From the NCBI GenBank assembly GCA_051362555.1, contig CM120640.1, positions 68,736,788 through 68,800,787 on the forward strand: a DNA stretch of 64,000 nucleotides, written 5' to 3'. The position numbers and the translations under genes were made by a program. Within the stretch, counting starts at the first letter, position 1. Each line of letters begins with the position of its first letter. The stretch is from Lingula anatina. Its lineage: Eukaryota; Animalia; Brachiopoda. This document shows positions 16,369 to 45,051 of the stretch, piece after piece. The notes below the pieces were generated by a model that was given only the letters and a program-made list of their open reading frames with translations, ran no database searches and had not been told where the DNA came from.

Positions 16369-16405
<37 letters not shown>

Positions 16406-17605: not shown

Positions 17606-20216
17606 GAGAATATTGAGTAAGACGGGACAATGCTGGCAGCATATTTTTGCTTGACTATTGTATTATAAATATATCATAATCTCGTACGCCAAACTGGAAG
17701 GCGGGATGGTTCCAGTTTTGTACATTAGAAACACGCGTCAGGGACATTTCTTTCGGACAGACTTAACCGAATGTTTTGACGTGTGTTTTAATTTAGAAAC
17801 ATTATTCTAAAACAAAAACACCATTACCGACGCAAAGGTGTGAAATTTGCCTGGCCAAATGAATTAATTCATAGCCACAGTTTGTCACTATCCGTGTTCA
17901 GTGAGAGTCCAGTTACTCTTAATTGATATTTGAAATCCACCTCTCTGTGATTCAAGTCTGATAACATGGCATGTTACTAGCCGTTGGTAACCGAATCAGA
18001 AACTCTGCAGAACTGTGATAACAGAAAGCATTCTTATGCAAATAACTGTGCCTCTTGTGTGGCGTATTAATCAGTCACGGTCTGGTTGTGGACCAGTTTT
18101 CTGTCACGTTTTAAGTTCGTTTTAGTTGGTTTTAGGTCCCCTTCAAAAAAACCTATCTGAATAACTATCAAACAAACGGGAAACGCGATTGTTTCCTTTT
18201 TCAATGGGAGGCGCCCAACTTGTTTTGTCTGAATAAATATATCAGGAAAGTGGCGATCAATATCCACTGTAGGAAAAGATTGATGAGGAATTGCTGGTTT
18301 TGTTTCCAAATGTAGCGATAGTCTTTCTTGCCTCTTTATGCTGAATATTCTTAAGATTTTAAATGCATGTTCATTTCAAGTAACAATACGTGTATAGATA
18401 TTAAATGGAATTGATGTTTGAGTTGATACGTAAATATAATAATTAATTCATCACTCCTGAATAGGAATTTTCGTTGTGTATCAAATTATCATTGGTTTTT
18501 ATTATTTTTAATTCTGGAGGGAAAATAATAGCTTTGATCTGTAAGATTATACGTCGCACTGCAGTTTCAAGTGTGTGAGTGTGTGTGTGTGTGTTTTGTA
18601 TTAGAGAAAAATCAAACATTCATATTCTGATAAACAAGTTGCATCAATCAAAAATTATCCCCGACAGACAAAACCTCCGCCGTAGAGAATAGCACTTGGA
18701 GTCGTTACACTAAACAACAGAAGTCGGAATAGAAGTTTTTTGAAACTTTTTAAGACCGAAATTTTCTGTAAGTATTAGTGGTATTACACGTAGTGGTCCT
18801 TAAAACTAAGGGGTTTTTGTTTGACATTTACATTTTAAATTGTCTTCTTCTTTTAAAAGAGTGAAGACAGACTGGTCTGAAGTTGCTTTGTGAAACGGGG
18901 TTCAGCGCCTATCTATATTATATTTGAAATAGTGCTTAAGTGCAATCTACATGTTGACCAAATTGTAATAATAAAAAATTTTCACATAGGCCTACTTTTT
19001 AAAACTTCAATTGACAAAAACGGTGACAGCCACTTTGTGCGATATTTTCTCTGCTCGGAAGACGCCCATTGATTAGTGCAATGAAGGATCGATGGCGGCT
19101 ATTGTTGCCGCGACATTTCGTGCAATCGTAGATGCTTTGTTTACTGCGTTGTACAATTTCCGAGTCAATAAAGTCAGCCTCAGCGTCAAAAGGAAAAAAT
19201 CGTTCAGTTAAAAACAAAGACATCGCATAGTAACTGTGTGAACGATCATTTTCAGCTTTCGAAACATTTTCCGTACAACATCCATACAACATCCGTGTCC
19301 CAAATTAAAGCTAGAGGGTTCTAAGAGCTTTTTTGTTTGAATATAGTCATATATATATACGCCTTTTTTATAATTTGGGTTATGGTTCATGAGGCATTAG
19401 CACTCCAAAACTAAAACAACATTACTTCCGAGTCAAAAGATCCTAGTCTGAACTAATGGCAATTTTTTAAGAAAGAAAATCCGGATTCTGAATAAAATGT
19501 CGTGTGTAACTACTCTATTTCGACATAATACGTGGTATACCCCAACATGTGCACCCACACACCAAACACATCTCTTGATCTAATTCCACGATTATAAAAA
19601 TGTTAATGTTGACTCGGTCACGCATCAAAAATATCGTTGAACAATATTCATTTATTATATTTTCGTCACGTTTCTTTATAAAAGTGAACTTTAATACAAA
19701 ACGAAACTAAAATACAGTATTGCCTTTGTCGCCGCATCTAGGAGTTAAAAAACGCGCACACGCACACTACTAAAAATAGTCTAAAAGAGACTCCTGCGAG
19801 TTTCTATAAAATGCATGACATATAGCCTAATTCGCGTCATATATAAAGTAGTGCATAGCACCGACATATTTGTGAGTAATGTGGCTTTGTTTCTCTTCAA
19901 GTGCCTGCTAGTCTCTCTGTATACATAAATTACTTCATAAATACTGAACCAGTTCAACAACTACAGGACGAAGAGTACATTTCCGTGAGCAATTCTGAAA
20001 AACTTGGAAACATTGCTGTAGGGGTTGCGACAGAAAGGGCGGACCCATTCCGTCTTCAAAATGTTCATGAAAATGATTTTGTTCTGCGTATTCAAGACTT
20101 CTGAGTGGAAGAGGACGATTGACCTTCATAACTGGCCTCCTTCGTCTTAATATACTTCAATGGTCGCAAAATAAATATAAACATACATATTCTTGAATAA
20201 ATTACTGAACAATGGT

Positions 20217-23200
20217 TTATAAAAGTAAAACCACCACTGCAATCGCAGATACCAATGTCCAATGGGCACATATTTGGTTGCCGTTTCCGACATATTCGCT
20301 TCCTACGTATACGGTCCTGTTGAAGAGTTCTATGACATTGCCCAGCGTACTCAGACTGCACATATAATTTCCCTTGTCTGAGGAGCCTGAAAGGCGAAAC
20401 AAACAAACAAAAAATCATGTAGTTATCTGTACTAATAAGTGCTTACCCACTGTTTACAGCTAGAGCAATAAAAATGCTTCATTTAAAGAAATACAGTGAG
20501 GTAAGACAAATGTCGTCATATAAAAAAGTAAATAGAAGGAAAATAAATGAAACTGATGTTATAACGTTTAAAACCATTAAAAGCGATCTTTCTAACAGTT
20601 AAAAATTCAATTAAAAAAAAACAACCACCTTAGAAGTGACCCCACACAACGAAGTCTCAACTAACACAATTCTAATTAAACCTACTTGGATCATATATAG
20701 TTATATAATTTTCATTGCCGCTCATTTCCAGTTTTCCCTTTTCGTCGCTGCTGGAAATCTCTCTGCCATCTTTGAACCAGCGCAGCATAGCGTAGGCCCA
20801 GTTTGGAATGCCGTACACATTGCACCGAATTTTCAAAGCCACTGTACCGTCAGGAATGGGAGACCCTACTTTCATGACTTCAGGTTTTACTGAAACAGGC
20901 AATTTTGCAATTATGATCTTGGGGCACCAATTAGTTAACAATTAACTTATCATCTATTTCCATATATTCAGACAACTGCTATTAGAAGTAATCTTTTCTG
21001 CTCACTCTTACCAGTGCGTAGATAAAACTGAATTTGATTTTACACATGTGTGACGAAGTTGTCTTTATCTTTTGCTGTTACACGGGATAGTAAATGCAAC
21101 TCTTTTATATTTTTATTGTTAGTAATTGACAGCCATGAGTGAATAAGGAGCGGAGAGTGTTTTGTAAAGGAACTGAGATGGTTGACATGCTCTTGTAATA
21201 CTTATGACTGTCAATTACCAACATTACACATCTAAGAAATAAATGAAGTAATAAAGAAATGCAATCAATATTACGTTTTATCTTATTTCAGAGAAGTAAT
21301 ACGTATATCGTTCTAGATATGCTACTTACTATCAATCACAGTCACTTTTCTAATAAACATATCTTCATATATATCTTTACATGAGTAACTCCCGGTTTGG
21401 TTGAGGTCGACATTTCTCCACTCCAGCTGGAGTTTCGTCCTGCCTTTGGGGTGGGTCGCGGGATACCCTTGGGTTGAAAGGACGGAAGGGTTTTCTTGTC
21501 CTACCCTGATGACCTCATTATCATGTAACCACTAGAATAATTGAAAAATATGCTAGCAAAACTATTACAGTCTACATTTCAGCAATTAAGTACAGAGGTC
21601 TCGATTTACACAATCGCAATACATAAGAGATTATTTAAACTTAAAAGACTTTCGGAGAATAAGCAAAAAAAAAAAAAAAAAGAGTCAAAATGTTTATATT
21701 TAAAATGACACTTAGATCTCCTTACCTCCAGAGTAAAATCGTTTTCTCTCCGGCTCCAGCACTCTAAGTCAAGGGTGTCCCCAGCCAGCAGATACCGTCT
21801 CCCAGACCCCGGGTTATTGCTCACACCTGTTATTGTGACTGAAATTTGAAATATAATCATGACATATCGAAACAGTTTTAATTTTAGAAGTACTGTGCAG
21901 GGGTCGTGGTCGCAATTTTTTTAATTAATCTGCGACAAAGTGTATATTAATCATCAACCCATTCTCTCGCGGCTTAAAAAAGATAAAAAAGTTGCGATTT
22001 TGCGAATAGACCCTTTTGTATAGGACTGTTTCAAACCCACTGGTTAGTTGTTTACTCCAACTTTATATAAAACTTTCATACGACTTTATCTGTAGCATTT
22101 TACATTTTTCTGGATTTAATTTTTCGTGGTTTTCTATGATAATTTCACTGTTCAGTGCTGCTGTTACAGTTGAAAAAAATATTGTTAGCATTGTACACTC
22201 TGTGAATCATAATGCAGTATCAGAATAATGTTTTAATCATTCTTTTAAAATTAGCAATTTGCAGTCAGGTAACCTCTGTGACTGAAGGTGGTTGATGGGA
22301 ATTCAGATAACAAGGCTATAATTTGCTGATAAGAGGGGAAACAGACAGAATTTCCTTAGTCATTTATTCGAGTGTACGAGGTGTTGACTTCGGGAACGCT
22401 TTGAAATAGGTGTCGCATGATGCTTCTTTGTATTTTAAGACCTCAATACCTTAAATGTAAAGTGGGAAGGTATATTTATAATGGCACATATCAAACAATC
22501 GCACCACTGTGTGAAACTGGGTGTCATGAATTATCATAAATCTTCTACTACACGCATACATATCGTCTGTTGATTATTTAACACTCATCCAGATGTGGGA
22601 AATGAAAAGGTTGACCCCGGCATGAAAATCAGTGTAAAGTCAACAATGCACCGTCCTTGAATCTGTATATCTGCCTTTATTCACATTCCAGTGGAATTAC
22701 AGAAGAAAGTCTATATATAATACATATAAAAACAAGCACTGGACAAAGAAAATCGATACATATCAGTTTTAGTTTCATGCTACTAGTAGGTCTGGTCAAG
22801 GAGTTATATACTAGTACTACCGGTAGCACAACTCTTTGGTCTGGTGCACCATCATGCTTTATTTTGTAAGAGAACCATCTCATAAAATAAACACAAGGGA
22901 TGAATTAAATTTGTCAAGCTTTCATTTCCCACATCTTATAAACCAGGGACTAGTTTGGGCAATTTGGCGACAACCAAAGGTGTTAAAGTCTTCTCTGGTG
23001 GGACGCAGTGCACTGTCTTAATTTAAAAAAATTCTCACCACACAATGAAGGACAGCAAGGACCACATACTAAACTTCCTCTGAAAACACAGGCATATCAA
23101 ACCTCTATATTTCTACCTCTCTATACTTCTAAAGTACTATACGGAACACTCACCTGTTGTCGTTAACGATAATTGGGTCACCAGTATAACAACTACGTGT

Positions 23201-23945: not shown

Positions 23946-25217
23946 TGATTCTGTTAATCAGACCCAGAAGTACTTCAGGGTAGCGCAGGTAGCACAATGT
24001 ATCCTCTACCAGGGCCGCAGCTATTATTGTGGACATTTCTGGCTGAAGCGTCAGTTACAACTTGAGCATCAAAGTTAGGGTTGTACTGTGCATCTGCGGA
24101 AGGAGCCAGTAGTTCTTCGTCATCGGGAACTTTAAATTTAATACCATGGACATAAGTAAAATTCAGAATTGTGGCTCATTTTTTGATGTAATAAATTTTT
24201 CGTTTCCACATACATTTTAGTCAATTTGGCCGATATATTGGTATCAACTACACCACGCGGTCGTAGGTTATTTGGTCTTTGTACCAAAATTGGGCAATGG
24301 ACGGCTTAAAATTTGTAAAGATTATCAATTAATTTTAGCCCAAGTTCGTTTCAGTTAGAATTGGTGAATTATTTTATAATTTTTGTAAAACCACTTTTCC
24401 CAAAACTCAAATGTATCTGTCGGAGATACATTTTACACAGAATAAAAAAGGCTTTGCACTTGGAATTACATTTTCCCCATATGAAACATTAAGATATGGT
24501 ACACTGGACATGGTATCAATAGTCAGATATAACAAATGTCATCATATACGTACATCTCTCCTTTAATATATGAAAGAAAAAGCAGTTGTAAAAATCAAGA
24601 TATAAATAAATTGACCCATTTATTCACAACTGACAAAAGAAGATACATAAATGTCATAAATTTAAACTAAGGGAAATTTAGAATTCTAGTTTCTTCTGTT
24701 TAAATTAACTACATAGGACACATCTGTTACAAAATACAATGGAACAGAGATCACGTCATAGACGGCACTTAATATCGCAAATTCTTTTTTATAGATAGGA
24801 GACCCATTTAACATCATGGAAACAATTATACAAAGTTCAAGATGGTGCAAATCAAAGTATTTTCATTTGTGTCCCGTTCTCTTGTTATGTACCCCTCTCC
24901 GGGTAGGCCTATATAATGTACACGCCCTCTTCCCTACTGCCCATTCAATTGAAACAATCGATCGGGTGTTCTTGCTGTCTACTTCTTGTCATTCTGTTTA
25001 TCTAAAATAGACAATTACAAAACAAGCACATTTACCCTAAGTCAAAAGTACCAGAAAGGTCCTTTTCAATCATTTATGCAGTTTCAAAAAAAGTAAGTCG
25101 AAAAATAAAAATATTTTAATTTTTTTTTGGAACAATTAAAAAAATTTCATGATTTAGTTCTTTTCGCTTCGATTTCTATCCACTGAACTTATATCCCACT
25201 CATCTGTTGACCATTAA

Positions 25218-25385
25218 CAGGCCCGTAGCCAGCAATTTCAAAGGGGGGGTTCTTTTTCTGAAAAAGTGGACCTTTTACCATATAATCCCCATGTACCTAG
25301 GTCAAATTTTACCCAGAGTGGACCTTTTTCCAGCAAAAAGGGGGGTTCTTTCGAACCCCCCGAACCCCCCCTGGCTACGGGCCTG
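25218..25385. mobile_element. 168-bp MITE (hAT-like CAGG termini) in the 3'UTR intron of saposin gene 1
   Basis: 15-bp TIRs CAGGCCCGTAGCCAG / CTGGCTACGGGCCTG, with ATTAA directly repeated on both flanks (25213-25217, 25386-25390). Confidence 0.85.
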
Positions 25386-25644
25386 ATTAAGGAATCAAAT
25401 CGACCAAATCGGCTGTGCTGATGTATGGAGAACATACTAAACACTTAAAACCTACACACGAATACAACAGAGGGCCGTAAGATGGGCCATTTCAGCACAC
25501 TTCGGCACAATCGGGTCTGCTTTTTCACAGACAACAGTCGGAGCAAAATTACTTACAGAAAATACCCTTGCCCCTTTCGAGACACTGTCCTTAACAAAGT
25601 TATTGAAGGTGAAGTTAATACTTACAAGAAATCACTAAATGATA

Positions 25645-25738: not shown

Positions 25739-26835
25739 TTAGCAAAGCCCCAACTCAGAGCAAAGATTCTGTGGGCTAACTTGACTATTAAGGAGATCGA
25801 TAATTGAGTCACCATACTGTGTCACAAGGGTGTTACACTCCGACCTATATAAGCTTGGCACCACATTACAGACTTTATCCACAGCAGCGATAATTTCTGC
25901 CTGTATAAAAGTTATTTAAAGAAATTAAAGTAAACGAAAAGATGATTAAATAACAATTTATCAAAAACGTAAATACCACTATTCTAATGGAGGAGAATAC
26001 AAAAACGCAAAATTATAAATGAATGAATACAAACTTGCCTCAGAGGAATTAACATCAAGCATATCATCCAATGCTTCTGCAGCAAATTCACACACTACGC
26101 ACGAAACCTGACGCTTCAGTTTCTTTGCGTGTTGCACCTCAGAGAGCTGATGAAGGAGATCATCGTCTAAAGATTTAGCTGCAAAACAAAATGTATCAAA
26201 CTGCAAGTCCATGAAGATAAGAGTGAAGAAGTTTGGCTAATTTATTGCAAAAAAAAAAAAAAAATGAAATTTGGAAAAAGTTTAAGTAAATTAAGGAATC
26301 GTCAGAAGACGCTGTTTTTGATAAGTACTGTCTGGGGAGTCAGATGAGAGCCGTTTTATGCGACCAATAACCAGGTTGGTGCAAGGATAAATGTCTGATA
26401 AGCATGGTAGTTAAGTATGTTATCTGAAAACTTTCGGTGTAAGGTCTCAAAGTAACCCCACCTCCATACTATTTCTATCTGTATAGTTCTTCAAACAGTT
26501 TCGGTGACTTGAATAAATGACAGGTTGCAAAATGCGTTGCAGTAACAACTCTAATAACAGCTGCAAAACTAAGTTTATTGCACACCAATCACGAGTCGAA
26601 GAATTAACTCAATAAACAGGCCCTATATTCCCTAACATGCTACGAAAATTCATGCATTAGCACGCCCACACAATGTATACCTGCAGTATGTACGGTTTCA
26701 GATACCCACAGTTTTTCCTTCTAAGTACGTGTAGGCCTACTCTCCTTTGGTTCAGTAAAAGATAAGTCCAAATGCTTACTTACCATACACGACAAAGAAG
26801 AACGCAGCTAACAACACTACTAGTTTCTGCATCAT
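25739..26835 (-). CDS. Small secreted single saposin-B-domain protein (saposin gene 1); exons 26784-26835, 26039-26178 (GC donor), 25739-25900; non-coding last exon from about 25001
   Basis: MMQKLVVLLAAFFFVVYA-KSLDDDLLHQLSEVQHAKKLKR-QVSCVVCEF...VDKVCNVVPSLYRSECNTLVTQYGDSIIDLL...PQNLCSELGLC*: signal peptide, dibasic site and six Cys in saposin spacing with the conserved YG. Confidence 0.9.
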
Positions 26836-28860: not shown

Positions 28861-30568
28861 TGCCCAAAGAATCCTAATATATAGCAAATTCGGTTTCACT
28901 TATTATTATTGTTCCTTAACCTTCAAAATCACTTATTTTATTGAAAGTAATATTGTTAGTTGATACATAGATTTTGGCGATTTGTGTCCTCTTTGTATTT
29001 AAGTAATTACAAATTGAAAATTGATAACATGGCTAAAGTGTCCATTTTGCGAATTTCAGCGACCGGCACATTGGTTTAATAATCAGTTATGCATTGGTTT
29101 TTCCTTACTAAGTGTAAACTGAATATAGATTGCCGAGGATATAAAAGTTATGTTATTGACCGTCCAATTTTCAGGAACAGCCCTTGTCTAATGTATATGT
29201 TGTCTATCAAGTACTAGAATCTCTGATGCGATTTGTGGAGTTTGGTTTCGTGCTGTTATACTTCTACTTCTTTAATGAAATTCTTAATTATAAGTATTGT
29301 TTGTCATGTGGCACAATTAATAAAGAATTTCTCTCTTTTGATTTTGTAAATTGCAGATCAGAATATTTTCTCTTTAGTCATTTACCAGTGAATAGACTAT
29401 TTAACCTAGGTTTTACTTGCATGTAAAATACTATCCCTGTATGCACAAAAGTTTGGTTCATTTTCCGATGTCACATTTTTTTTATTTATTTTTTTTTTTT
29501 TTTTGCGTGGCTACATACACTTAAGGCAATTTAGCCGAAATATGTCAATGTCACCCGATGGCTCACGCGGTACAGGTTTGGCATTTGGAATTACATTTTC
29601 CCGTGTGAAGCATAGGCTGTGGTAACAATTGTCAAATGAAACTAATCTGATCATTTTATTTAATCTCCTTTAATATTGAAAAAGCTGTTGTTACAGTCAA
29701 GAAATAAATGCACTGATCAAGTCACGAATAACTGATACAACAGAAGAGGTATAAATGTCATTTAGTCAATCTTGATGAGAATTCTAGTTTCTTCTTTTTA
29801 CTACATAAAAAACCATGCGGTTACAACATGTAAGGACACATAAAGATCACTTGTCATAAACCGTGCTTCACATCGCATCCCTTTTGATATATTGGAAACA
29901 CTTTGGACATCATGGTAACAAATATACAGATATTGGTGCAAAACAAAGCATTTGTATTTGTGTCCCACTTTCTTGTTGTTGTGTAACCCTTCTCCTATTT
30001 GTAGGCCTATGTGACGTACACGTCCTCTTCCCTCCTACATTTGAAACAATCAAGCAGGTCATTTTGCAGTCTACTTTTTCTATCTTATAAGTTGAAAACA
30101 GTTCAGTTGGGTCCAAGATACATGTATATATATATCACTGAAGATATTAGCGCGTCATTTCTTTGTTCCCTGTAGTGTCGATGCAGAGTCAGAGGCTGGT
30201 GTAGAAAAACCGTTACATCTAAAATAGACAAGGACACAAAATAAACATAAATACACAGTATATAATGTGCTTTTTACTATTTCAACGATGATATATACTT
30301 AATATTTCTTCTATAATTTTGAAATTTCAATAAAACCTAGCCAGATTTTAATTTTGCCTAGTCAGAATCTAAATAAGCCTTGGCAGAATTGAAATTTTAA
30401 TTTGGCCTAGACCGATTTCAAATCTGTTAAAGCCAAATTGAAATTTAAATCCTGCCTAGGGCAAATCTGAATGGATTTCATTATCTAGCCTGCGACATAT
30501 AATTTACACAACCTTTATTTAGATAATACTGTACATACAAAATTGAACCATACCTAATCTATCTTCAC

Positions 30569-33388
30569 TTAGCAAAGTAGCATTGTACTGCATAATACCC
30601 CTGGTTCCCCTTGATTCAGAAGAAAGTCGACAAGGTCTCCACCATACATGCCCAGAAATATTTCACACTCCACGTTATAATTGCTTGGCAGCTCAGAACA
30701 GACTGTGTCCACAGCATCGACAACCCCTTGCTGTATGAAAATAATTGAAAGAAATAATTAAAATGAAATTAAAGTGGACAAAAAGAAAGGAAATAAAATA
30801 ACAACATATGAAAAACGTAAATGTCACTAAATTTTCTGATGAAAGAGCGTTCCATATCCAAAGACGCAGAAAAATAAATGAATAAATTTAAGAAAATGAA
30901 TAAAGAAAACTTACCTCAGTAGGATTATCCTCAAGCATTTGATTCACTTGGTTTGTAACTATTCTACACGTTGCACATGGAATTGGAGTACGCAGTTTTG
31001 GGGGTTCCATATCACCACTGCCCTCTCTAGGACTTCTGTGACTGGGTCTTCTCCGCCTGGGAGGACGCATTTCACTGGGCCTTCTGCCTCCTGCAAATGT
31101 TAACAAATTTTACAACTGTGTCCCCAATGAATTCCATGTTCAGCTTGAAAAAACTCACTTTAAACAATAGGCTATATAAACAAGTTTAATACAATTCTGA
31201 ATTAAAAAGAACCTTTGTTTCTACAGATTTTATCAATAACTCACTGTGACTGGGTCTAGTCGGTCTAGGTCTTTCTGTATCATCACCACTTCCCTCTTCA
31301 TGACTCCTATGACTAGGATTTCTCCGCCTTGAGGGACGTCTTCTGCCCCCTGGAAATGTTAGAAATGTTTACAAGATTAGTCGTTATGTCCTGTGCCAAG
31401 GTGAATTTTAATTAAAATTAATGTTGAAAAATTGAGTGGTCGTATTTAAAAACCATTCAAAACTGTACGAAATTGATCTAAATATTACTTCCAATTATGA
31501 GAGCCTTTCCTTCAACAGAATTTATCAATAACTTACCGCGACTGGGTCTAGTTGGTCTAGGTCTTTCCATGTCATCACCACTACCCTCTTGAAGACTCTT
31601 ACGACCGGGAGGACGCAATGCACTGGGTCTTCTACCCCCTAGAGATGTTAAAAAATTTTAATCCATAAGACCTAAACCTAAGTGAATTAACTTTTGTTAA
31701 AAATTTGACACTTCACTTTTCAAAAATACTACCACTACCAAGGCTAACTTTAAAGATTTTGGTGGAGATCGGGATCCTCATCTGCATCCATTAATTTTTT
31801 AAGGATTCTTCACTAAATTGAGAGAACAGGCCAATTTGGTCGTTTTTGCTTATAATTTCACAAATAATATTTAGTCTTTAAATTATGAGAATTTAGTAAA
31901 TCAAATGGCTGATAAATAAAGAGTTACAATAATTAGAAAATAGGTGCTTTGGCGGAAGCCAGTTTGCTTTTCCTGTATATGACTCTACGAAATAGGTTTA
32001 AACATAGCTTTGAATTAATGAGAGTCTTTGCTTCAACATGATTTATTTTAATAAATTAATTTATTTCATTAAAAGTTTATTTTTTTTAAATAAATTAATT
32101 TTTTATTAAATTTTCAATAGATTTATTATATCTTATTAAAATAACTTACTGTGACTATGTCTAGTCGGTCTAGGTGTTTCTATATCATCACCACTACCCT
32201 CCTCAGGACTCCTATGACTGGGATTTCTCCGCCTGGGAGATCGCTGTCCACTGCGTATTCTGCCGCCTGCTGGATACCATGAGAAACAAACAATATATTT
32301 GTAAAATAAATCCTGCGCTGTCTAAGAATAGAATGAGTAAATTGAATAGAAAAAAGTATTGTTTTTTAAATGGATTTCATACTATTCCCTTGCTTGTTTC
32401 GCATTTTTTATTCAAATTACTGTTAACCTGAATGTTAATTAAAAATGGGCGGTATGTTTTCTGCATTTTTCATATTTCACTTCATAGACAAAGTAAATGG
32501 GTTGCGAAATATGTATAAACACTAGCATAATATATCTAGGGGACTGACATTTTGTCTCCTTCACCTACAGAACAGTTAAAATAATATGTGAACCGAGTAA
32601 CTTCAGTTAGTAAGCTTAGCACCTGTTCTACGTGTATATTTCATGGTCTCATTTGTTACGAAGAAAGCCAAGGTACCCCTGTATGTATTTACTTGGTTCA
32701 CATATTATTTGAAGTGTACTCTGCATAAAAGAGACAAAATGTCAGGGTTATCAATGAACTCAACGTTCTTCCGTCTTGGAAGCTCAACCTCCTTGAATCT
32801 TGTCATTTTAAAAAGTTATCTGCGGAATGGTATGATACATGTACCTTTAGGACAGAGATGCCAGATTCATACTCAAATTCGAGAAAAAAAACTTACCCGG
32901 AGCGGGCGCAGGACTGGCGGGTGGTGATCTTCCTCGGGGACTCCTGGGTGGGTCATATTGGCGCAAATAAGCGATTGATACCAAATCTGTAAAACAAGTC
33001 AAATTTTAAGAAGATCGGAAATGCACCAGTGCCTTGGACTACCATTTCTTTTTCTTAGACGCATCAGTACGGCTCTGCATCAATTAGGTTTTCCCTATTA
33101 TCTTCGCATTCAAAGAAATTATTTAAAACCTAGATTTTTTCTTAGCGTTTTTAAGCAAAAATGGTCTGTTTCAGAAGAATCCGCATTTAACTTTAACCTT
33201 AGACTGTAAGTCTAGAAGTGCTGAATGCGTCCACAAAACAAGACAAGAACGATTAAATTATAACAACCAAAATGCCTACCTTTAGAAGGATCTTTGTTGC
33301 CGGTCTTGTCTTTGTCTTCGATGTACAAGGCAATCCCAACGCTTATAAGAGCGAGCGCAAGAGCGCAACGTAGACCTTCCCTTCCCAT
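30569..33388 (-). CDS. Secreted saposin-B protein with N-terminal Arg/Pro/Ser-rich, EGSGD-containing repeats (saposin gene 2); exons 33280-33388, 32897-32986, 32150-32269, 31537-31638, 31245-31349, 30915-31090, 30569-30730
   Basis: Signal MGREGLRCALALALISVGIA, then symmetric phase-1 exons of 90, 120, 102 and 105 nt, all open, then PCATCRIV...VDTVCSELPSNYNVECEIFLGMYGGDLVDFLL...PGVLCSTMLLC*. The intron within the saposin domain and the 3'UTR intron match gene 1. Confidence 0.85.
32544..32744. repeat. Degenerate foldback/MITE remnant in an intron of saposin gene 2
   Basis: CTGACATTTTGTCTC...AAATAATATGTGAACC (about 32544-32600) is inverted at about 32690-32744 (GGTTCACATATTATTT...GAGACAAAATGTCAG). 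Confidence 0.65.
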
Positions 33389-34008
33389 CCTCTTGTCGCT
33401 TTCGGAATGTGGACTAGGACATTTTCAGCGTATTTAATACCATCCCAGTCGTTAATTGGCTGTTTTAATTGTTTGTGGGGTTCTGGGCCGGTGGTTGATG
33501 AATGCGATTATTTTAGCAGTTTGTCAATAAGTTCTTCCACCATTTCAATACTCCTCTACCATATAATTATATTGGCAACAATTTCGCTGGTAGATGACAC
33601 CTATGAATTGGCAGCACGTGGTTTTAAAAACTTACCCACAGAACCTAATACATGTAATTAACCTCCGCATTTCCGACATCTAGAGCATCATTTCTGATAA
33701 CAATCGGGAAGTTGAGATGCCATCGCAAGTCGCAAGTTCCTTTCAAGTTTTACAAGTTTCCAGGTTTATTCATTTCTTAATTACTGTAATACAGTTTAAA
33801 GAACAAATAATTGCATGTACATACAAATGTTAACCTGAAGGCTTTGGGACCCTTATTTCGCGGTAGGTGCTTAGCATACATGATTTTGCGTCATAAGAGA
33901 GACAGCACATTTTTTTAAATTTACGAATAGAGAACACACGAACACACTACATACTGCACCAATATATAGCAAATAAATACATAAAATAAAATAAAATATA
34001 AAAATTAT

Positions 34009-34118: not shown

Positions 34119-36216
34119 CAGAGGGAGAGAAGTTGAAAATGCAGGCCTATATAAATGTGCAACCAAAGTAAACTTATGTCCGGTTGATTCTTGATGAATT
34201 TTCCCTTTAGGAAGCCTTTTAAGTTAGGACCAAGTTTCTACTTGAGTTCTTATGTGAAACCAGATTTTGACAGAACAAAGGATGCTTGCATCCTTATCAT
34301 GTACACTGAAAACTAGCCTCTTATATTTTAAATTTAAGTGTCAGCAATAATTCTGTAACAGACTACTAGCCGCCCTGTGGTCAGTAGACTAGTGCGTTAG
34401 TACCTGATTCTTGTGTATTGTGTGTGTATGTGTGTGTGTGGGGGAGGGGGGGGGAGGGGGGAGGGGTCAAGCCCCTTTCATCATATCATTATATCTAGCG
34501 TCCTAGATCATATCAAGCTGCCACATTTTAGACCCAAGGCAAGCTGGAGTGTTTTTGAGATTGGTGGCCTAGTTTAAAGACATGACGTAAATACAACAAG
34601 GGGTCAATTTTAACTTATTATGTTCATAGTTCATAGTTTATTTCACTGTAACATATGCATCCACTTGTGTGGATGAAAATGACAATATGAATACAATTTT
34701 TGTGAATATGCTATTAAACAATCACAATGATTAGGACTATTTACTTATTTACTAAAAAAAAAAAAAAAAACGAGTTTCTCTCTATTACTACTATTACTCG
34801 ATGAGTGCAGCACTGTCTTCTAGATCCCTCAAACGTTTTGAAAAAAAAAAAAAAAGATTCTCGGTTTAAAAATACTCCCCGATGTATAACAAATGTAACA
34901 AATTAACCAGATCATAGATTGCATTATCTTTTACAACCAAAACAAAATGTCAAATATTCATTAAGGGAGACATTCAAAAAGTCTAAAATTAAAACCAAAC
35001 GATCATTGAGTTATGCGATATACAAGTTCCAAAATGGATCGATAGACTTTTATTTCATCTTTGACCTTGCATTTTAGTTATTTTACTTTAAGTTTGTTCA
35101 CATATACAGACCGTAGGCCTATTTTTGTTTTACTTGAAATTTACTGTGTTGTTTTGTTTGGTAAAGAGTCAGGTTGCTTTCGAAAATCCGCATGATCTTT
35201 TATTAGTGAATTTTTTTTTCACACATTAGCATATTTTCAGTTGCTTTTATATCCCATGGAACTAATTTACTTGTGTTTTTCAATGTCCATGTTACTTGTG
35301 GTGCTTGATATAAGAAGGTAAAATTGATTATGCTGTTTTAAAGCATTATGTAACAGTGCATCAAAATTGGCCAAAACATTTTTGTAAACTTTTAATTTTT
35401 TCTGCGTAATGTCTCAACATCTGACAGCTTTCTTGCCTTGTTTCCTGTGTATATTTCCCAGCTGTCTAGTTTAACTCTTCTGCGCCAGGAGTACAGAAGC
35501 TACAATGGTAGACCGCTGTAAACAAAACCAGGCAGCAGGCAGTATGTAACACAGGCAGTACAACACAGGTAAGACGGGGGATTAAAGTATTTTAATGTTT
35601 GGTATGCCCAGTGGGTGTGATAAAGAGTATGTGTACACCAGTATGTTGTTAATTTTATTTATTTAATGCCCATGGAAAAACAAAAAATAAGGTAGACTAA
35701 TTTGCTAATCCAAATTCATTCATTAACACATTCATTAATTTTCGATATGTTCTGTTTGAGCTAAAATAGTACAATTCAGAAATAGTACTTATCAGAGACA
35801 GTGAGTTAGTAGGATTGCTATGGCCTGAATGTTCGTGCTACCAATTTCCATGAATTGAAGTCTTTAAGTTAACTTGTCTTCACTTTCACTTTTTTTCAGA
35901 ATCAAGTTGTATGTAAATAATAAGTACACTGTACTATTTGTCGTTAAGCATGTACAAGTCCAAATAATCAGCCTCGAGCACACGTTTGAATTCCTTTTCT
36001 CATTTCATGTAATTACCTTTCCTCTTTATTACAAGGCTGCTAAGTGTATTGGTGCATGTATCATTTCCACAACTTCTACTGGGTAAATTTATGTCCAGGA
36101 AAATTTCAAAAGCGAAATTGTGGCTTTACGTATTTTAACATTTAATTTTATTCTTTTGCTTTAGGTGCCACCTAAACATTATGTAATTACTGAAGTAACC
36201 AAGCTATGAAATAGAA

Positions 36217-37131
36217 ATGAATGGATATGCCGAAGACGGGGACTACATTGTAGATACTTGGTTATTGGACACAGATTTCAGTTTTGAATTTGGAGAGCAC
36301 CAGGATTTGCCAAAATTAAACAAGGAACAACTTAGATTTATTCTTGCAGTTAAAGCAGGAAAAATAAAATATGTAGCTGCCAAGATAGCAGAGGGGTTTG
36401 ACGTAAATTTTTGTACAGCCTGGAGGGGAAACCCCCTGTGCACTGCAATAGAAAACAGTAGGCTGGATATTGCCAAGTTGTTACTAGACAGTGGAGCACA
36501 TACAGAGAATGCCCTGCATTTAGCATGCTTGAGGAGTAACATTGATTTGGTGTCAATGCTGCTGTCATATGGAGCTGATCCCAATGCTGTTGGACACGGA
36601 GTGGGAGAGGACATTCCAACCTGTTTTATATTTGCACTACACGTGGCTCAGCCCTTGACAATAGTGTTGAAATTGATAGAAGCTGGTGCTGATGTAAATG
36701 CGATGTGTTGTCAAACGCTGTGGACACCACTGCATCTGGTGTGTAACAGTCCTGCTCACAGTGCTGACATAGTCCAGGCCATTCTCAGAGCTGGAGGTAT
36801 GGCACATCACAGAGACAAACACACGGGATGGACTCCTCTACAACACGCAGCAATGCGGTCTGACAGAAAAATAATTCAACTTCTCATCGCAGCTGGTTAC
36901 CCTATACACAGGGAAGTGATGCCTTTAAAAGACCTGCACCCCAGTTTGCTGTGTGATCTTGAGTTGATGAATTTTTTGAAACAGGCTTGGAGCAATCCAT
37001 ACTCATTGAAGAAGCTCTGTGCAGCATTGATAAGAAAATGTCTTGGGGGCTGTAAAATGCAAGATAAGGTCCTTCAGTTACCTCTCCCAAAATACTTGAT
37101 GAAATATGTAGCTCTTGAAGTCTTACTTTGA
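36217..37131 (+). CDS. Ankyrin repeat and SOCS box-containing (ASB-type) protein, single coding exon
   Basis: Ankyrin motifs (GNPLCTA, ALHLAC, GADPN, GADVN, WTPLHLVC, GWTPLQHAA) and a C-terminal SOCS box PYSLKKLCAALIRKCL...LPLPKYLMKYV. Confidence 0.92.
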   Translation: MNGYAEDGDYIVDTWLLDTDFSFEFGEHQDLPKLNKEQLRFILAVKAGKIKYVAAKIAEGFDVNFCTAWRGNPLCTAIENSRLDIAKLLLDSGAHTENALHLACLRSNIDLVSMLLSYGADPNAVGHGVGEDIPTCFIFALHVAQPLTIVLKLIEAGADVNAMCCQTLWTPLHLVCNSPAHSADIVQAILRAGGMAHHRDKHTGWTPLQHAAMRSDRKIIQLLIAAGYPIHREVMPLKDLHPSLLCDLELMNFLKQAWSNPYSLKKLCAALIRKCLGGCKMQDKVLQLPLPKYLMKYVALEVLL

Positions 37132-38119: not shown

Positions 38120-41100
38120 ATGGCAGTTGTGCAGACTGAAGAGGTGAGAAGGTGTGTGTGTGTGTGGTGGGGGGGGGGGGGGGTACAGCGATTCATATCT
38201 ATTTTTAGACAGAAGTGGACGATATTTTCACGAACCAACGACACCACTAAGAAATTGTCACAGCCACTGGAAGCTTGGGGTAGCAGAATACGTTACAACT
38301 CCTATTTTGTGTAATATCACGGGATCATACAGCGTATTTTAAAAGGTCTAGAATGTCTTTAAGACAGAGGGAATTGGGTTCACTAGTTTATTACTTAATT
38401 TTAATATTAAAAACTCAATGAAGCAACGCACCTGTTTTTAGATATAAGAGTTGACTGTGACAATTCTCAGGTGGTTATGCAGCTGACAGCCTGTGCCTTA
38501 GTACAGTGTATATATAGCTTTCAGCACATACCTGGGGCGCCCGGCATATACAAGTACATGCTTGAAAGAACAGGCCTGTGGGTCCCCCACATATATCTTT
38601 CCCATGACCATCCAGGTTTATTCATGTTGTATCGTACTGTGACGTTATTGGTAAAATTTGCCAATTTTCCAGCCTAAGTCTTATTTCCCAGTGCGACTCA
38701 AAGTAGTATATATTCAAACTGCATGCAGGGCCCACCAAACAATTGTGTTGTGGGTCCTAGATTTAAATAAAACATTTCTGTTTATCTCGAGTAACTTAAT
38801 ATGCCATATAAAGAAATCTGAAGCATAGACAGAACAAGTACATAGCTACCTGTAGGAGTAAAGTCACGCACTGCTTTTTTTTTTTTTTACTTTATGCAGT
38901 GTAGGCTCCGTCTCATTTGTAAAACTTTAGTGCTTTTTTTACAGTGACATAGTCTGTAACATTTTTATATTTCCTAACTTTCCGTTCACAGACCGAGGCA
39001 GAGGATGGACGTGCCACGTGGGGTGGAAAGTTTGAGTTTATATTGACATGTGTGGGGTATGCCGTGGGCCTTGGGAACGTATGGAGGTTTCCTTACCTGA
39101 CGTTCAGGAACGGGGGAGGTAAGTTCATGTAAAAAATTTTAATCTTGACGCCTTTTCCTTTTTCTTTCTTCTTTTTCTTGTTTCTGTATTTATTCATTTT
39201 TCTTGTTCCTTTTTCCTTTTCGCTTTCCGTTCCGTCAAATTTTAATGCACGTGGCAAAGGGACGTATTAAAAAACTGAAGATGATGACATCATTTAAAGT
39301 AACTGCAAAAAAACAATGAATGATAAATAAGTCTCGTCATACCATGGGTAGGTCATCTTTCTTTCTTAGAATAGAATTCGATCACATGTTACACCCCAAA
39401 ACCTAGATTTCACCTTTATTGCTGAAGTAATAGTTTTCACTTGTAGCCATCTTGACATTGTTATCAGTGTTACCAGGGTGTAAATTGCAATGTCAAAGAC
39501 TTAAGTCCATTAAACTAGCTGATTAATGCACATAAAGTGACGCGGTAATAAAAAACAAACAAACTCTTAAGGATGTCCTTTTAAAACCAAGGTATAGGGT
39601 ATTTAATATTATTGTGTGTTTACATTAGAATTAAATTTATTACAATCATTATACTGGGTTATTTGCACCATTTTTCTTAATTGCAAAAAGCAAATCTAAA
39701 ATTTCAGGAGCGTTCCTTCTGCCTTACATCATAATGCTGGTGTTTGTTGGCCTTCCCCTGTTCTTTCTGGAGCTGGCTTTCGGTCAGTTTGCCAGCTTGG
39801 GACCAATAACTATATGGAGAATTAACATTTTGTTCAAGGGTAAGTATCTGCCTTTTCAAAAAAATGTATTCTAAAAAATCTTCTCATGGCATGCACATAG
39901 ACCGGTAGATCTCTACAACATTTATATTGTAGACTGTTCTTTAGCCTGTACGTCCGTTGTGATAGAATGATTGGCAGCTGCGTTAAATATAGCGAGAGAA
40001 ACAAGACAAGACCAAGCAATCTTTCCATCCAGGGAAAAACACCTCTGCGCCCCTTCCCAATAATACAAAGTAGGATGGATTTAATATTATTGTGATGGGC
40101 CACGTTTGAATAAAAGACCCCCCTCTTGTATATTCTTCTCATTGCATTAAATCGCTACATATATATTACACTGAATGGGTTTATCACTGTGACATTAGGC
40201 CTGGGCTTTGCGATGGTGTCCGTGTCTTGGATGATTGGTCTCTACTACAATGTGGTCATCTCTCACGTGCTGGTTTTCCTCATCTCCTCCATGACCGCTG
40301 AGCTCCCCTGGACCACCTGCCAGAAGTACTGGAACACGCCCTCTTGTGTCGAGGACCCCAAAAATAAAACAGGTATTAACTTTGAGCAAATGTAAGCAAA
40401 ATCATATTTCAAAAACATATTTGAAATGGTGACTGTTGTCTTTGCCAACACAGAGGAATGTAGGGTTGTGAGAACAGAGCCTTAAAGACTGGCGCTCAGT
40501 CGATCGTCTCCATCTGAACGAAAATGTCCTTGTATCGCTTAATCGTGACCAAATTATCTTTTTTTAAATCAAATAAAAATAAAAACCTATTAAAATCCAT
40601 ATTGGAATACAGTTATAATAATTTGACTTCAATTATTCAGTCTGTGTGTAATCATTGTTTTATTTCAGCTCTAGCCATCGCTGTGAACTTTACTGGGCGC
40701 AGCACCACGCCAAGTGAAGAATATTACGAGTGAGTACCTTTTTATTCTTCATTTTATGCATGAAAACCAACCGATGCTACACACAAGTTGTCATTAGTGA
40801 CATTTATAAACAATCTTTAGATATTGAAAATCCCAAATATTCCTTTGACTCAAATCAAAATGTTTTTTTTTTAAATCAGTTATATGGATTTTATCTGACA
40901 TAATCTATTTTACTGACACAAGGCCATTTAGATAAGCTTTATTACAGATGAATATTGATTTTATTAAATTGACATTTTTATTAATGCAACAACTTCTATT
41001 TTTCTTTATAATACATCTATTTCAGTAACTTTGTGCTGGAAGTCACCTCCGGTATTGACGAGCCCGGGGGTATGAACTGGCGTGTACCGGTGGCGCTCTT

Positions 41101-44100
41101 TGTAGCCTGGGTCATTGTGTTATTATGTCTACTGAAGGGCATACAAACCCTAGGGAAGGTACATGTTTTAATTACAATTTAGGTTTTTACCTAGTATATA
41201 TGCAATGATCTATCACGCGCACAGTAAAACAATTTTCAAAACAACATCGAAATATGTCCAATTTCTCAGCATAATGCTTTTATACATTTGGGTTTACTAA
41301 AATCGCTGGTTGCTTTGTCTGTTAGTAGTACATCTTGATACTGACAACATTTTCCACAGGTTGCCTACTTTACCGCGATCTTCCCCTACATAATGCTGAC
41401 CATACTTTTGGTACGCGGGCTTACACTAGATGGCGCTGTGGACGGAATTACATTTTACCTCAAACCAGACTTCTCCAAACTGGCAGATTCTAGGGTAAGA
41501 AAGACATTTCCAAATCAGTTTTTAATAAAGTGACATTTTTATTGTAGAAAAGCGTACAAAGGCAACTTCAGGACCACTTACATTTTTATTCAAGTTCCAA
41601 CCAATACAGCACAAAAAAACTTATTCACATTTTACTTTTTTTTTTAGGTGTGGAGTGACGCAGCTACGCAGATCTTCTTTTCTCTCAGTGCCTGTTCTGG
41701 CGGGCTGATAGCCATGTCCAGTTACAACGACTTTAAAAACAACTGTCTCAGGTGCGTGGTAAGGGGGCGGGGTGTTCATTCTGTAAACTCGTTTTTCTCC
41801 CATCTCAGCTGCCACTGTTTTTGCTACGTTTACTAATCAATTTTAGTTTTGTGTTGATTTAGAGGTATCTATCTATTTGTCATCTGTCTAAAGTAGATTA
41901 TTCAGCAACATTTGAAAAAAGACACCAACAGTCCAAGTTTATATAAATGCTGCCTATTTCCCTTATTAACCAGTTTTGAAATAAAACGATAAACTTCATT
42001 ACAGGGATTCTATAATTGTTGCGACTATTAACTGCGCCACGAGTGTTTACGCTGGTTTTGTCATTTTCTCCGTCCTTGGTAATATAGCTTATAACAAAGG
42101 TGTGCTAGTTGAAGACGTTGTAGCTGGAGGTGAGTACTGATTCATTACAAGTCTCAACAGATACTTTAAAAATTGCCTGGCACCTGTGTAATACGCACCT
42201 TAGAGTTTGGATGAAAAAAAAAAAACACCACTTGGTATTGAAGCTTAAACATAGCGTATGTATTTATTTCAAATATTAAAAATCCTAATATGAGTAAACG
42301 TTACCCAAAACCAAGAGACTTAAATTTTAGGCTTTGTAAGTTAGATCAATAACTATAAGTAGCTACCCCAGAGGGCTGAAAGTGCTTCCCCTCATCTTCT
42401 CTGCTTCAGTGTGTATGTTCATGCATCGCCAGTTATTTGAAGTGGCGTTTATACAAAAGAGAGAAGAAAGGATGGCGGGGAAATATATCTTATTGATCTG
42501 TTTTTATCTGTTCTTAGGTCCAGGCTTAGCATTTGTAGCATACCCAGAGGCCATAGCAAGAATGCCTCTGTCACCACTGTGGGCAATCCTTTTCTTTATC
42601 ATGATGGCGACATTGGGTTTCGGCTCCCAGGTAGGTTGCTGACCGTTTGTTTCTTACCATACTGCTCAAAACAGAGTCGATCTGTGATTTTTGTAGACGA
42701 TATACGTTTTGTTCTTTTTGTTACAGTTAATATTTATTTGGTTTCAAATTTGATTATTGTAAATTGCGCTGTCATGTTAAAAAGGAGTAGATTTGAATTT
42801 TTAACTTGAAATACGTCATAACCTGTAGGTTTTGTTTTAGCTGTCCACAGTCGAATGTGTCCTCAGCGCGTTAACTGACGAGTATGCAGACTGGCTTCGT
42901 CCACGAAAGAATAACATCATCTTCCGAGCTGTGTTTTGTTTCGTGTGCTTTTTACTGGGACTTCCAATGGCTACAAGGGTATGGTCAGTGAATATGTAAA
43001 TGGAAGAGAGGAATTTTTTGGATGTTAAAAAAATATGGTTTATGTCTACTGGGTAGGGCCAAATATAAGCCCTCCACACAAAGTTAACAAAATGCACCAG
43101 TTAATGCTCCTTTTAAAATTTTCTACCCCCTATAATAAAAAGTGTGGTTAACATTACAGAATATTTAAGCTGTCATTTTTTGTTAGATTCGATATTTATA
43201 TTATTTAGGGTGGCATATACATGCTGAATTTATTGGACTACAGTGTCAGTGGATTTCCGTTGTTGGTGGTCGGTTTTACTGAAGTGGTAGTGCTTAATTG
43301 GATATATGGTAAGGGTAACTTGTACGAGTTTACATGCAGTACCACTTGTAAACCCACTAGATGATTTTTTTACTCTGTTCGCTATTCCTGTGTAATAACT
43401 TCCGAATAATTCCAACATTCAAATCAAGACCAATGTCCATTTTTTTTTCTTTTTCCGATTGAATTTGTGTTCCTATAATGGATGAAAATTCACAGTAGAC
43501 AAGGAATGGCATACACAGCCTAAAGTTGTCCGTCCGCCGTCCGGGAAAATTGACTTTTATCTTTTCGATACTTCTTCACAGCTTCAACAGATAAGTCGTT
43601 ATTGGAATAATTGACAGTTTTGTACTCATCACGTGTGTTCATTTGTGTACGTTTATTTTTCAGGCTACGATCAGTTTTCCACGGACATTGAAATGATGTT
43701 AGGAAGAAAGCCAAATATTTACTGGAAAGTCTGCTGGATCGTGTTAACACCTGTGATCATTTTCGTATGTATTTAAAAATGAAAAATAGACAGCGCCACA
43801 GACTCGTATAGACCTAAATCAGTTTAGATAAAAAGGCACGCCTCAGAACGACACAATAGAATTTACTAATTGGATATATGTTTGACGTTGCCAACAACAT
43901 GAAACAACAAAAAGTTTGTAACTAGGACTACTGTTACCAAGACTTTCAGCTTGCATCAAAACCACGGAATTCCATATTAATGTATTTTTATGTGGTCGCT
44001 CATATGTAGTTAAGTAAACATACAGAAATCTTTGTCGATTAATTAACACATTTGGCCGCCCATACACCACACTCGAATAATGAATGATATTATCCATAAT

Positions 44101-45051
44101 TTTTTCCTGATTTTTTTTCCCAATTGTAATCCGTGATTTGTTTTGATGCTTGACTTCTTTTTACATTAATTCAATATTGGGTGTTTTTGTTTTCAGGTAA
44201 CCATTATTTTCAACTTTGTTCTGTACAAAAACCCCACGTATAACACGTACCAGTACCCTGGGTGGGCGGTGGCCCTGGGCTGGTTGATATCCCTGTGGCC
44301 GACACTCATGATCCCTGTTTGGTGGATGTATAGGTTTTGTAAAGATGGTGGATGGGAAGTAAGTAAAACTTTAGCCACAGGTGTGATAATTCTGTATGTT
44401 TACGAGTATTTTAAGGCTTTATTAAACATCGTTAAGTGTTATTCAGTTATTGTTTCTTAAGTAAAATATAACCCGAAAAAGCAGAAAGCAAAAACTATGA
44501 AAGTCATTTTGAAAATATTAGACACCTTTCTTTAGGTGAAATTATAATCACTTTTTTCCGTCCTGAAAATTTCACCAACATTTGTGAAGATCTTTTTGAG
44601 ATATTTTACCCACCACCTAACACACAAGCTTTCGCCAACGAAAGCATAAAAACTTCGTTAACATATGTCATGATGTGGTAATCATAGATTTACGTACTGT
44701 GTGTTCAGTTCAGTTCAGTTCATAAATAAAAGTAAAAAGCGTACGTGTCAATTCTTGATAAAATGATAAAACCTATGCTGCTGGTAAAACGTTCTATTGG
44801 GTATATTTCAGTTTACAAAAGAGGTGATGCGCCCGTTACCGGACTGGGGGCCGGCTAGCGAGGGGTTACGGAAAGAGTACTATGGCCAGATGGAGGCAGG
44901 GGAGGAGAATTTAGGGTATTCATCGTCCTCTCTTTGGAGCAGACCACAGACAGGCGGCTCCATAAGCACGCTGGGTCAGGGTTCTACTGCGGCACCCAGT
45001 ACAGCAGCCAGCACGCTGTCGGACATGAAGAGATCAGAAACGTCCGTTTAA
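38120..45051 (+). CDS. SLC6 Na+/Cl--dependent amino-acid transporter; approximate exons 38120-38143, 38992-39118, 39708-39839, 40199-40372, 40670-40729, 41026-41158, 41360-41494, 41648-41751, 42005-42129, 42518-42630, 42841-42978, 43209-43308, 43664-43764, 44197-44358, 44812-45051
   Basis: [57 protein letters not shown] and [14 protein letters not shown]1 has Gly rather than Asp, so it is amino-acid rather than monoamine type. Confidence 0.95.

What the first reader, a model, noticed from the sequence alone, without database searches (positions are those of the whole stretch)
30569..33388. Saposin fused to an exon-amplified array of EGSGD (glycosaminoglycan-site-like) modules: candidate saposin proteoglycan
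Seen: four paralogous segments (32150-32269, 31537-31638, 31245-31349 and the 5' part of 30915-31090) encode EEGSGDD, QEGSGDD, EEGSGDD and REGSGDM between a signal peptide and an intact six-Cys saposin domain. The motif is kept while flanking residues drift. Established: Ser-Gly in an acidic context (bikunin EEEGSG) is the xylosyltransferase acceptor consensus for chondroitin/heparan sulfate. Inference: a secreted lipid-binding saposin carrying up to four GAG chains, for example a mucus, matrix, adhesive or egg-coat component. I do not recognise this architecture from described saposin-like proteins. The ORF track misses almost all of it.
Basis: partly seen in the sequence, partly recalled or inferred. 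Interest (0 to 1): 0.8.

Follow-up and report, generated by a model that had tools for sequence, protein, structure and literature searches.

The report
Brachiopod saposin with proteoglycan-like repeats
A spliced and expressed gene of the brachiopod Lingula joins a saposin domain (predicted to bind lipid) to four duplicated arginine-rich repeats, each holding a likely attachment site for a sulfated sugar chain, so it would be a secreted saposin-proteoglycan hybrid, although the sugar chains themselves are untested.

Summary
The window is Lingula anatina DNA. All six coding joints of the seven-exon model appear in RNA run X1 (113-307 reads each). RefSeq holds the protein under a misleading name (XP_013402221-3).

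The 287-aa product has a probable signal peptide, four exon-duplicated units each with EGSGD, and an acidic saposin C-like domain (E 2.5e-12). EGSGD fits the xylosyltransferase acceptor pattern. It shows 0 replacement differences against pN 0.27 just upstream; the neutral chance is 0.016-0.034 for four copies and not significant for three.

No relative outside Lingula turned up, and the protein is in neither Lingula shell-proteome list. This scan had not noted it before. Best reading: a secreted saposin proteoglycan (about 0.5). Verdict: new variant of a known kind, glycosylation untested.

The parts
33280..33388 (-). Exon 1: ATG, hydrophobic stretch (probable signal peptide, about aa 1-20), short charged tail. 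An alternative donor at 33268 adds 4 aa (RefSeq isoform X1). Read ends at 33390-33405 mark the likely 5' end; a TATA-like stretch lies about 30 nt upstream.
32897..32986 (-). Exon 2 (phase 1-1): Pro/Ser/Arg-rich linker without EGSGD; no significant DNA likeness to the repeat exons
32150..32269 (-). Exon 3, repeat unit 1 (EEGSGDD, Ser92). It also holds a fifth SG (Ser73) in a basic context that is a poor acceptor candidate. NAGNAG acceptor (RefSeq isoform X2 lacks one Ala).
31537..31638 (-). Exon 4, repeat unit 2 (QEGSGDD, Ser126); an RGRR furin-type site spans the exon 3/4 joint (aa 107-110)
31245..31349 (-). Exon 5, repeat unit 3 (EEGSGDD, Ser161)
30915..31090 (-). Exon 6: repeat unit 4 (REGSGDM, Ser200; RGRR at aa 176-179, RRRR at 187-190) fused to the first part of the saposin domain (SapB_1, E 0.003, below cut-off); N-P-T stands where saposin C has its glycosylation sequon
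30569..30730 (-). Exon 7: second part of the saposin domain and stop (SapB_2, 25.2 bits, above the cut-off of 21)
30219..30553 (-). Intron in the 3' UTR, 15 nt after the stop; the tandem paralogue has a look-alike donor just after its stop
29665..30218 (-). 3' UTR exon (approximate 3' end from read starts); about 69% alike over 554 nt to the DNA downstream of the paralogue
25739..26835 (-). Tandem paralogue without repeats (predicted exons 26784-26835, 26039-26178, 25739-25900): 117-aa signal peptide, short pro-piece ending KLKR, saposin domain 27/76 identical, no SG, keeps an N-S-S sequon; its second intron is predicted GC-AG; weakly expressed in X1
   Evidence: no joint rows for it were shown

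Best explanation
This expressed, spliced Lingula gene encodes a likely secreted saposin-like protein whose pro-region was expanded by exon duplication into four Arg/Pro-rich units, each predicted to carry a chondroitin- or heparan-sulfate chain on the serine of EGSGD. Shown: the exon chain, expression, the saposin C-like domain, the repeat anatomy and a repeat-free tandem paralogue that marks the starting state. Inferred: a signal peptide sends it into the secretory pathway, and Golgi xylosyltransferase starts chains at Ser92, 126, 161 and 200, which sit in acidic islands of an unfolded region. Inferred, weaker: the polyanionic chains and the Arg clusters of the same or neighbouring molecules bind each other, so the protein would pack densely in secretory granules and set into a gel or coat on release. 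The acidic saposin end would tie that gel to lipid or membranes. Furin-type cuts at RGRR or RRRR could free a saposin with a single chain.
For: Splicing. Saposin C match E 2.5e-12; the top Foldseek rows are saposins C and D. Acceptor rules and the syndecan-1 EGSGE site: PMC5992326 passages. Known CS sites lie in disordered or low-complexity regions and GSG ranks first: PMC10424144 passages. The -5..+5 windows hold 3-5 acids and 0-1 basic residues, while the fifth SG has 0 acids and 3 basic. EGSGD: 0 replacement and 5 silent pair-differences, with the Gly codon in three forms; upstream pN 0.27. Neutral simulation, any 5-codon block invariant: 0.016-0.034. Read joints of a related transcript, translated by hand, show 42-nt units that are little more than the EGSGDD core (68 and 44 reads in X2 and X3, 13 in X1) and an EGSGDE unit (93 and 88 reads). 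Lingula has 30 CHST3-like sulfotransferases and GAG-rich shells (PMC4595640 supplement passages; PMC13425148 passage).
Against: There is no biochemical evidence of xylose or GAG. XT1 is lax, so many SG sites fit. The three-copy test is not significant (any-block P 0.47), and the block was chosen after seeing it; few substitutions are involved and gene conversion is not excluded. One unit of the related transcript reads EGQP without Ser-Gly (125, 83 and 30 reads). Units 2 and 4 have only one acid upstream, and unit 4 has Arg at -3. Strict Cardin-Weintraub regexes found no heparin-binding motif. The protein is absent from both Lingula shell-proteome lists; this is weak, because the saposin part gives one 69-aa tryptic peptide. 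No orthologue outside Lingula was found to test conservation. The signal peptide rests on hydropathy only and could be an uncleaved anchor. A Lingula xylosyltransferase was not checked directly (0 hits for the term in the 2015 supplement).
Confidence: 0.5

Rival explanations
1. A precursor of cationic Arg/Pro-rich peptides (host defence or granule packing). Convertases cut at the Arg clusters, and the acidic islands only neutralise charge during storage, without any sugar chain.
For: 39 Arg and 24 Pro in 145 aa, pI about 12; three R-x-[KR]-R sites and 12 dibasic positions. The paralogue has a KLKR site just before its saposin domain. Expression is strong and restricted.
Against: The acidic core falls in the middle of the pieces that the furin-type sites would release, not at their ends. 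Plain neutralisation would not need invariant G-S-G. The related transcript has units that keep the core and lose the Arg clusters. The saposin domain is acidic (net -10, 0 Lys), unlike cationic NK-lysin or granulysin (their charge is recalled).
Confidence: 0.2
2. An ordinary lysosomal or digestive saposin C-like lipid-handling protein. The pro-region grew by neutral exon duplication and is cut off; the motif is kept by recent origin or gene conversion.
For: Symmetric phase-1 exons duplicate easily, and flanking intron DNA was copied with them. Flank pN/pS is 0.6-0.9, near neutral, and the three-copy test is not significant. The repeats are found only in Lingula. One unit of the related transcript lost the core.
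Against: Four-copy test P 0.016-0.034. The core was re-amplified as a 14-codon unit in the related transcript. The repeat-bearing gene has far higher depth in X1 than the plain paralogue (hundreds at exons against bin means of about 1-3). The N-glycan sequon usually used for lysosomal sorting (recalled) is N-P-T here.
Confidence: 0.2
3. A secreted phosphoprotein. The serines of the acidic islands are phosphorylated and bind calcium or apatite, like the acidic bone and dentin proteins.
For: Lingula mineralises fluorapatite (PMC13425148 passage). Two S-x-E sites (aa 87, 156) and an invariant Ser five residues before each SG. DMP1 shows that such proteins can also be proteoglycans (PMC4669440, abstract start only).
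Against: Only 2 of 4 units have S-x-E. The region is net strongly basic. The protein is not in either shell-proteome list, and PMC4595640 reports no secreted acidic proteins among the shell proteins.
Confidence: 0.1

Closest known systems
Human saposin C (PDB 2GTG, 1M12) and single-domain saposin-like proteins (SAPLIPs)
   Same: A six-Cys domain of about 76 aa that aligns without gaps (E 2.5e-12, 32% identity); acidic; signal peptide plus pro-region plus one domain, as in the tandem paralogue.
   Different: No lysines in the domain (saposin C has 7 in the aligned stretch); N-P-T in place of N-K-T; about 190 aa of Arg/Pro/Ser pro-region with four EGSGD islands. Of 149 other saposin-family representatives, 0 have a window with 7 or more Arg in 20 aa and 1 has one acidic SG motif; that set is biased to multi-domain proteins.
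Ser-Gly proteoglycan core proteins: syndecan-1 (Ser206 site) and bikunin (Ser215 site)
   Same: E-G-S-G-acid acceptor context in an unfolded region (PMC5992326, PMC10424144 passages).
   Different: No sequence homology. The sites are embedded in strongly basic spacers and joined to a saposin domain, and GAG attachment is not shown.
RefSeq models XP_013402221-3 ('serine/arginine repetitive matrix protein 1' / 'translation initiation factor IF-2') and XP_013380999 ('prosaposin-like')
   Same: The same gene: the window differs at 3 of 287 aa from XP_013402223 and at 5 of 208 aa from XP_013380999.
   Different: The names look like low-complexity mis-transfers. The only precomputed Pfam family is SapB_1. 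The protein is not a multi-domain prosaposin.
Saposin-domain proteins in brachiopod shell proteomes (696-aa Lingula prosaposin; Laqueus isotig 00213)
   Same: Saposin domains have been recovered from brachiopod shell matrix.
   Different: The Lingula entry is a 696-aa protein, not this one. The Laqueus sequence was not seen; its authors call it lysosomal.

Membership tests
Saposin-like proteins (SAPLIP) | Six cysteines in the saposin spacing | tested here: met
   6 Cys in aa 212-287, aligned without gaps to saposin C
Saposin-like proteins (SAPLIP) | Pfam SapB profiles | tested here: met
   SapB_2 25.2 bits against a cut-off of 21; SapB_1 18 bits against 25.2 on the exon-6 piece alone, below cut-off; PF05184 precomputed on the full protein
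Saposin-like proteins (SAPLIP) | Helical saposin fold | tested here: inconclusive
   The single-sequence model is low confidence (mean pLDDT 51.9, domain 46-74) with four helices; best Foldseek row is saposin C, E 1.0e-3, TMt 0.65
Saposin-like proteins (SAPLIP) | Lipid or membrane binding | not testable with these tools
   needs an assay
Proteoglycan core proteins (CS/HS) | Entry into the secretory pathway | tested here: inconclusive
   One hydrophobic stretch, best 19-aa Kyte-Doolittle window 2.05 starting at aa 5; no signal-peptide predictor available
Proteoglycan core proteins (CS/HS) | Ser-Gly with flanking acids in an unfolded region | tested here: met
   4 of 5 SG sites; no secondary structure at aa 44-213 in the model; rules
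Proteoglycan core proteins (CS/HS) | Covalent xylose-linked GAG chain | not testable with these tools
   needs lyase shift or glycopeptide MS
Prosaposin | Several SapB domains in one precursor | tested here: not met
   one domain followed by a stop, confirmed by reads
NK-lysin/granulysin-type cationic SAPLIPs | Cationic saposin domain (recalled) | tested here: not met
   domain net -10, 0 Lys, 1 Arg
Pro/Arg-rich antimicrobial peptide precursors | Cationic peptides bounded by convertase sites with acidic spacers outside the peptide (recalled) | tested here: inconclusive
   sites are present, but the acidic cores lie inside the predicted pieces; activity untested
SRRM1 (RefSeq label) | Nuclear splicing factor with PWI domain (recalled) | tested here: not met
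   only PF05184 is listed; hydrophobic N-terminus and a saposin domain

The most novel reading that the evidence does not exclude
A Lingula gene family of self-condensing saposin proteoglycans. Each chain carries both sulfated GAG chains and the Arg clusters that bind them, plus a lipid-anchoring saposin. It is one of the unidentified core proteins behind the GAG gel of the lingulid shell, mucus or a secreted coat, and the number of GAG sites is being tuned by exon and micro-repeat duplication.
Probability: 0.2. Interest if true: 0.75.

Novelty: new variant of a known kind. Interest (0 to 1): 0.45.

Why it matters
If the serines carry GAG chains, this is a saposin-domain proteoglycan. My paper searches found no such pairing described (open-licence library only). 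The plain tandem paralogue, the four-unit gene and the micro-repeat transcript give a rare stepwise view of how a proteoglycan core could arise from an ordinary pro-peptide by symmetric exon duplication. Lingula shells are GAG-rich and the genome has an expanded sulfotransferase set, so the gene is a concrete, easily tested core-protein candidate. If there are no chains, it is a lineage-specific saposin with an odd pro-region and a wrong database name.

Tried and rejected
No whole genome is held, so the locus of the related transcript could not be found, and a Lingula xylosyltransferase was not searched.

No RNA holder was listed by the index. The runs came by species label; 8 of 9 were laid and X6 was not.

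Homologue searches: last exon against longer proteins, 2 hits of 10 candidates, both Lingula; full protein against 160-510 aa, the same 2 of 7993 scored; repeat region against 30-159 aa, 0 of 1319. The repeat region was not searched against proteins over 510 aa. The HMMER search of cluster representatives with the last exon gave 440 hits, of which the 150 shown are mostly multi-saposin proteins, so single-domain relatives are under-sampled. Atlas: only weak saposin clusters (0.80) for the whole protein and no usable hit for the repeats; blanks show no absence.

Other reading frames of exons 4 and 5 are open, but exon 3 has a stop in that frame and only the EGSGD frame joins the ATG to the saposin. 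An exon-2 origin from the repeat unit was not supported (no match over 8 nt). Strict heparin-binding regexes gave 0 matches.

Paper searches with 0 papers: Lingula+saposin; saposin-like+proteoglycan+chondroitin sulfate+attachment site; saposin+core proteins+chondroitin+glycoproteomic; saposin+glycosaminoglycan attachment. One search gave 2 unrelated papers. Shell role: not supported by the two proteome lists. Earlier scan notes: nothing by sequence or by place.

Full report
Identity. The last coding exon matches two Lingula anatina proteins at 98% and 96%. They are RefSeq XP_013402221-3, named 'serine/arginine repetitive matrix protein 1' or 'translation initiation factor IF-2', and XP_013380999, 'prosaposin-like'. 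The window's product differs from XP_013402223 at 3 of 287 residues and from XP_013380999 at 5 of 208. So the gene model is public but badly named. XP_013380999 may be a second haplotype, given the 1.6% heterozygosity reported in PMC4595640; that is inference.

Gene structure. RNA run X1 shows all six coding joints with 113-307 reads each, an alternative first donor (30 against 307 reads) and a 3' UTR intron at 30219-30553. X2 and X3, from the same study, list five of the six joints; 12 rows were cut from view. X4, X7, X9 and X5 show no joint reads. X8 shows 3 and 1 reads at two joints. Expression is thus strong in 3 of 8 runs laid and near zero in 5. The runs are coded, so the tissue is unknown, and the other studies could also be diverged populations.

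Anatomy. A hydrophobic N-terminal stretch is followed by a Pro/Ser linker, four repeat units and a 76-aa domain with six cysteines. The domain aligns without gaps to human saposin C (E 2.5e-12) and passes the SapB_2 cut-off. A low-confidence single-sequence model has four helices there and no structure at aa 44-213; its best fold matches are saposins C and D. The domain is acidic (net -10, no Lys) and has N-P-T where saposin C has N-K-T. The 145-aa repeat region has 39 Arg, 24 Pro, 19 Ser, no aromatic residue and net charge +23, broken by four acidic EGSGD islands. It holds three R-x-[KR]-R sites.

Origin. A tandem paralogue at 25739-26835 has the same layout without repeats: a signal exon, a phase-1 intron, a short pro-piece ending KLKR, and a saposin split at the same point. 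It is 27/76 identical in the domain and has no SG. The repeat exons share flanking intron DNA, so they arose by tandem duplication of a symmetric exon. The paralogue's exons are predicted; no joint rows for it were shown and its depth is low.

Is the motif selected? Across four copies EGSGD has 0 replacement and 5 silent pair-differences, against pN 0.27 and pS 0.47 in the eight codons upstream. In neutral simulations with the same number of substitutions, some 5-codon block stays invariant in 1.6% of runs, or 2.6-3.4% with the doubtful end columns dropped. With only exons 3-5 and both flanks the same test gives 47%, because the downstream stretch is also kept. The evidence is modest and the block was chosen after the fact.

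A second transcript. At 85% likeness, about 60-95% of reads at several exon sites in X2 and X3 carry other letters, including four silent changes in codons 6-9. This points to a related, more abundant transcript; whether it is a paralogue or a very diverged allele I could not settle. I translated its joint letters and loose ends by hand. They show 42-nt units that hold little more than the EGSGDD core (68, 44 and 13 reads in X2, X3, X1; a further 90 and 70 reads show the same 14-codon spacing), and a unit with EGSGDE (93 and 88 reads). They also show one unit where the core is replaced by EGQP (125, 83 and 30 reads). Shrinking the unit around the core suggests the core is what matters; the loss shows that not every unit needs it. 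This transcript was not found in the protein collection.

Fit to GAG sites. From passages of PMC5992326: XT1 needs Ser with a small residue at +1, tolerates uncharged residues at -1, and prefers acids at -2 to -4; its syndecan-1 peptide has EGSGE and its bikunin peptide EEEGSG; the enzyme is 'surprisingly unspecific'. From passages of PMC10424144: GSG ranks first, all the sites shown there lie in disordered or low-complexity regions, and acidity tracks sulfation. The four sites here have 3-5 acids within five residues; the fifth SG has none. This is a fit to a pattern, not a test of glycosylation.

Context in Lingula. The shell's primary layer is described as mostly GAG (PMC13425148 passage), and the 2015 genome supplement lists 30 CHST3-like copies. 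The gene is not in the 2026 shell list (table S1 read whole, 54 proteins; accession search 0). The only saposin row in the 2015 list is a 696-aa protein. That absence is weak, since the saposin part yields one 69-aa tryptic peptide and glycanated peptides would be missed. A saposin was also reported in the Laqueus shell (PMC4536745 passages). I therefore do not assign a tissue.

Mechanism and rivals. Best reading (0.5): a secreted saposin proteoglycan with up to four chains. The further idea that the Arg spacers bind those chains and condense the protein is inference, and strict heparin-binding regexes did not match. Rivals are a cationic-peptide precursor (0.2), an ordinary saposin with a neutrally expanded pro-region (0.2), and a phosphoprotein (0.1).

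Novelty. No relative with this layout was found outside Lingula, within the limits listed under Tried and rejected. Among 149 other saposin-family representatives none has an Arg-rich window and one has a single acidic SG motif. Four paper searches for the pairing gave 0 papers; subscription papers are not covered. An earlier scan note describes a parallel design on an ependymin domain in a sea urchin, which I did not test. Papers seen: PMC5992326, PMC10424144 and PMC4536745 as passages; PMC4595640 as abstract, passages and supplement passages; PMC13425148 as passages, supplement part 1 and term searches; the DMP1 papers as search listing and abstract starts only. Verdict: real, a new variant of a known kind, apparently lineage-specific, glycosylation untested; interest 0.45.

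Noticed in passing
window 25739-26835 (-): Repeat-free tandem saposin paralogue with a predicted GC-AG intron at the position where the main gene has GT-AG.
   Followed up: partly
reads laid on window 31011-32217 (runs X1-X3): A second, abundant transcript with related but different repeat units, including 14-codon micro-units and one unit without Ser-Gly; not found in the protein collection, locus unknown.
   Followed up: partly
window 7510-17605 (+): Three tandem genes that look like two-pore-domain potassium channels, judged from ORF translations only.
   Followed up: no
window 32544-32745: 62-nt inverted arms (81%) in intron 2, with reads from other transcripts laid on it; looks like a small non-autonomous transposon.
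   Followed up: no
window 25213-25389: Dispersed repeat with high read depth and many unlike loose ends in all four runs.
   Followed up: no
window 36199-37131 (+): Single long ORF with ankyrin repeats and a SOCS box.
   Followed up: partly
window 56713-57471 (-): 252-aa stop-to-stop ORF with no Pfam match at E 0.1.
   Followed up: partly
window 46013-46588 (-): 191-aa ORF with a weak PPPDE peptidase (Peptidase_C97) match below cut-off.
   Followed up: partly
window about 48270-48750 and 53800-54280; also 60675-61247: Identical ORF text at two places about 5.5 kb apart, and a 282-bp tandem duplication; likely repeats or local duplications.
   Followed up: no
window 985-2410 (-), 20092-21920 (-), 40114-45051 (+): Exon-like ORFs resembling a kinesin, an Ig-domain protein (weak I-set match) and an SLC6-type transporter; the kinesin and SLC6 labels are recalled from the translations.
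   Followed up: no
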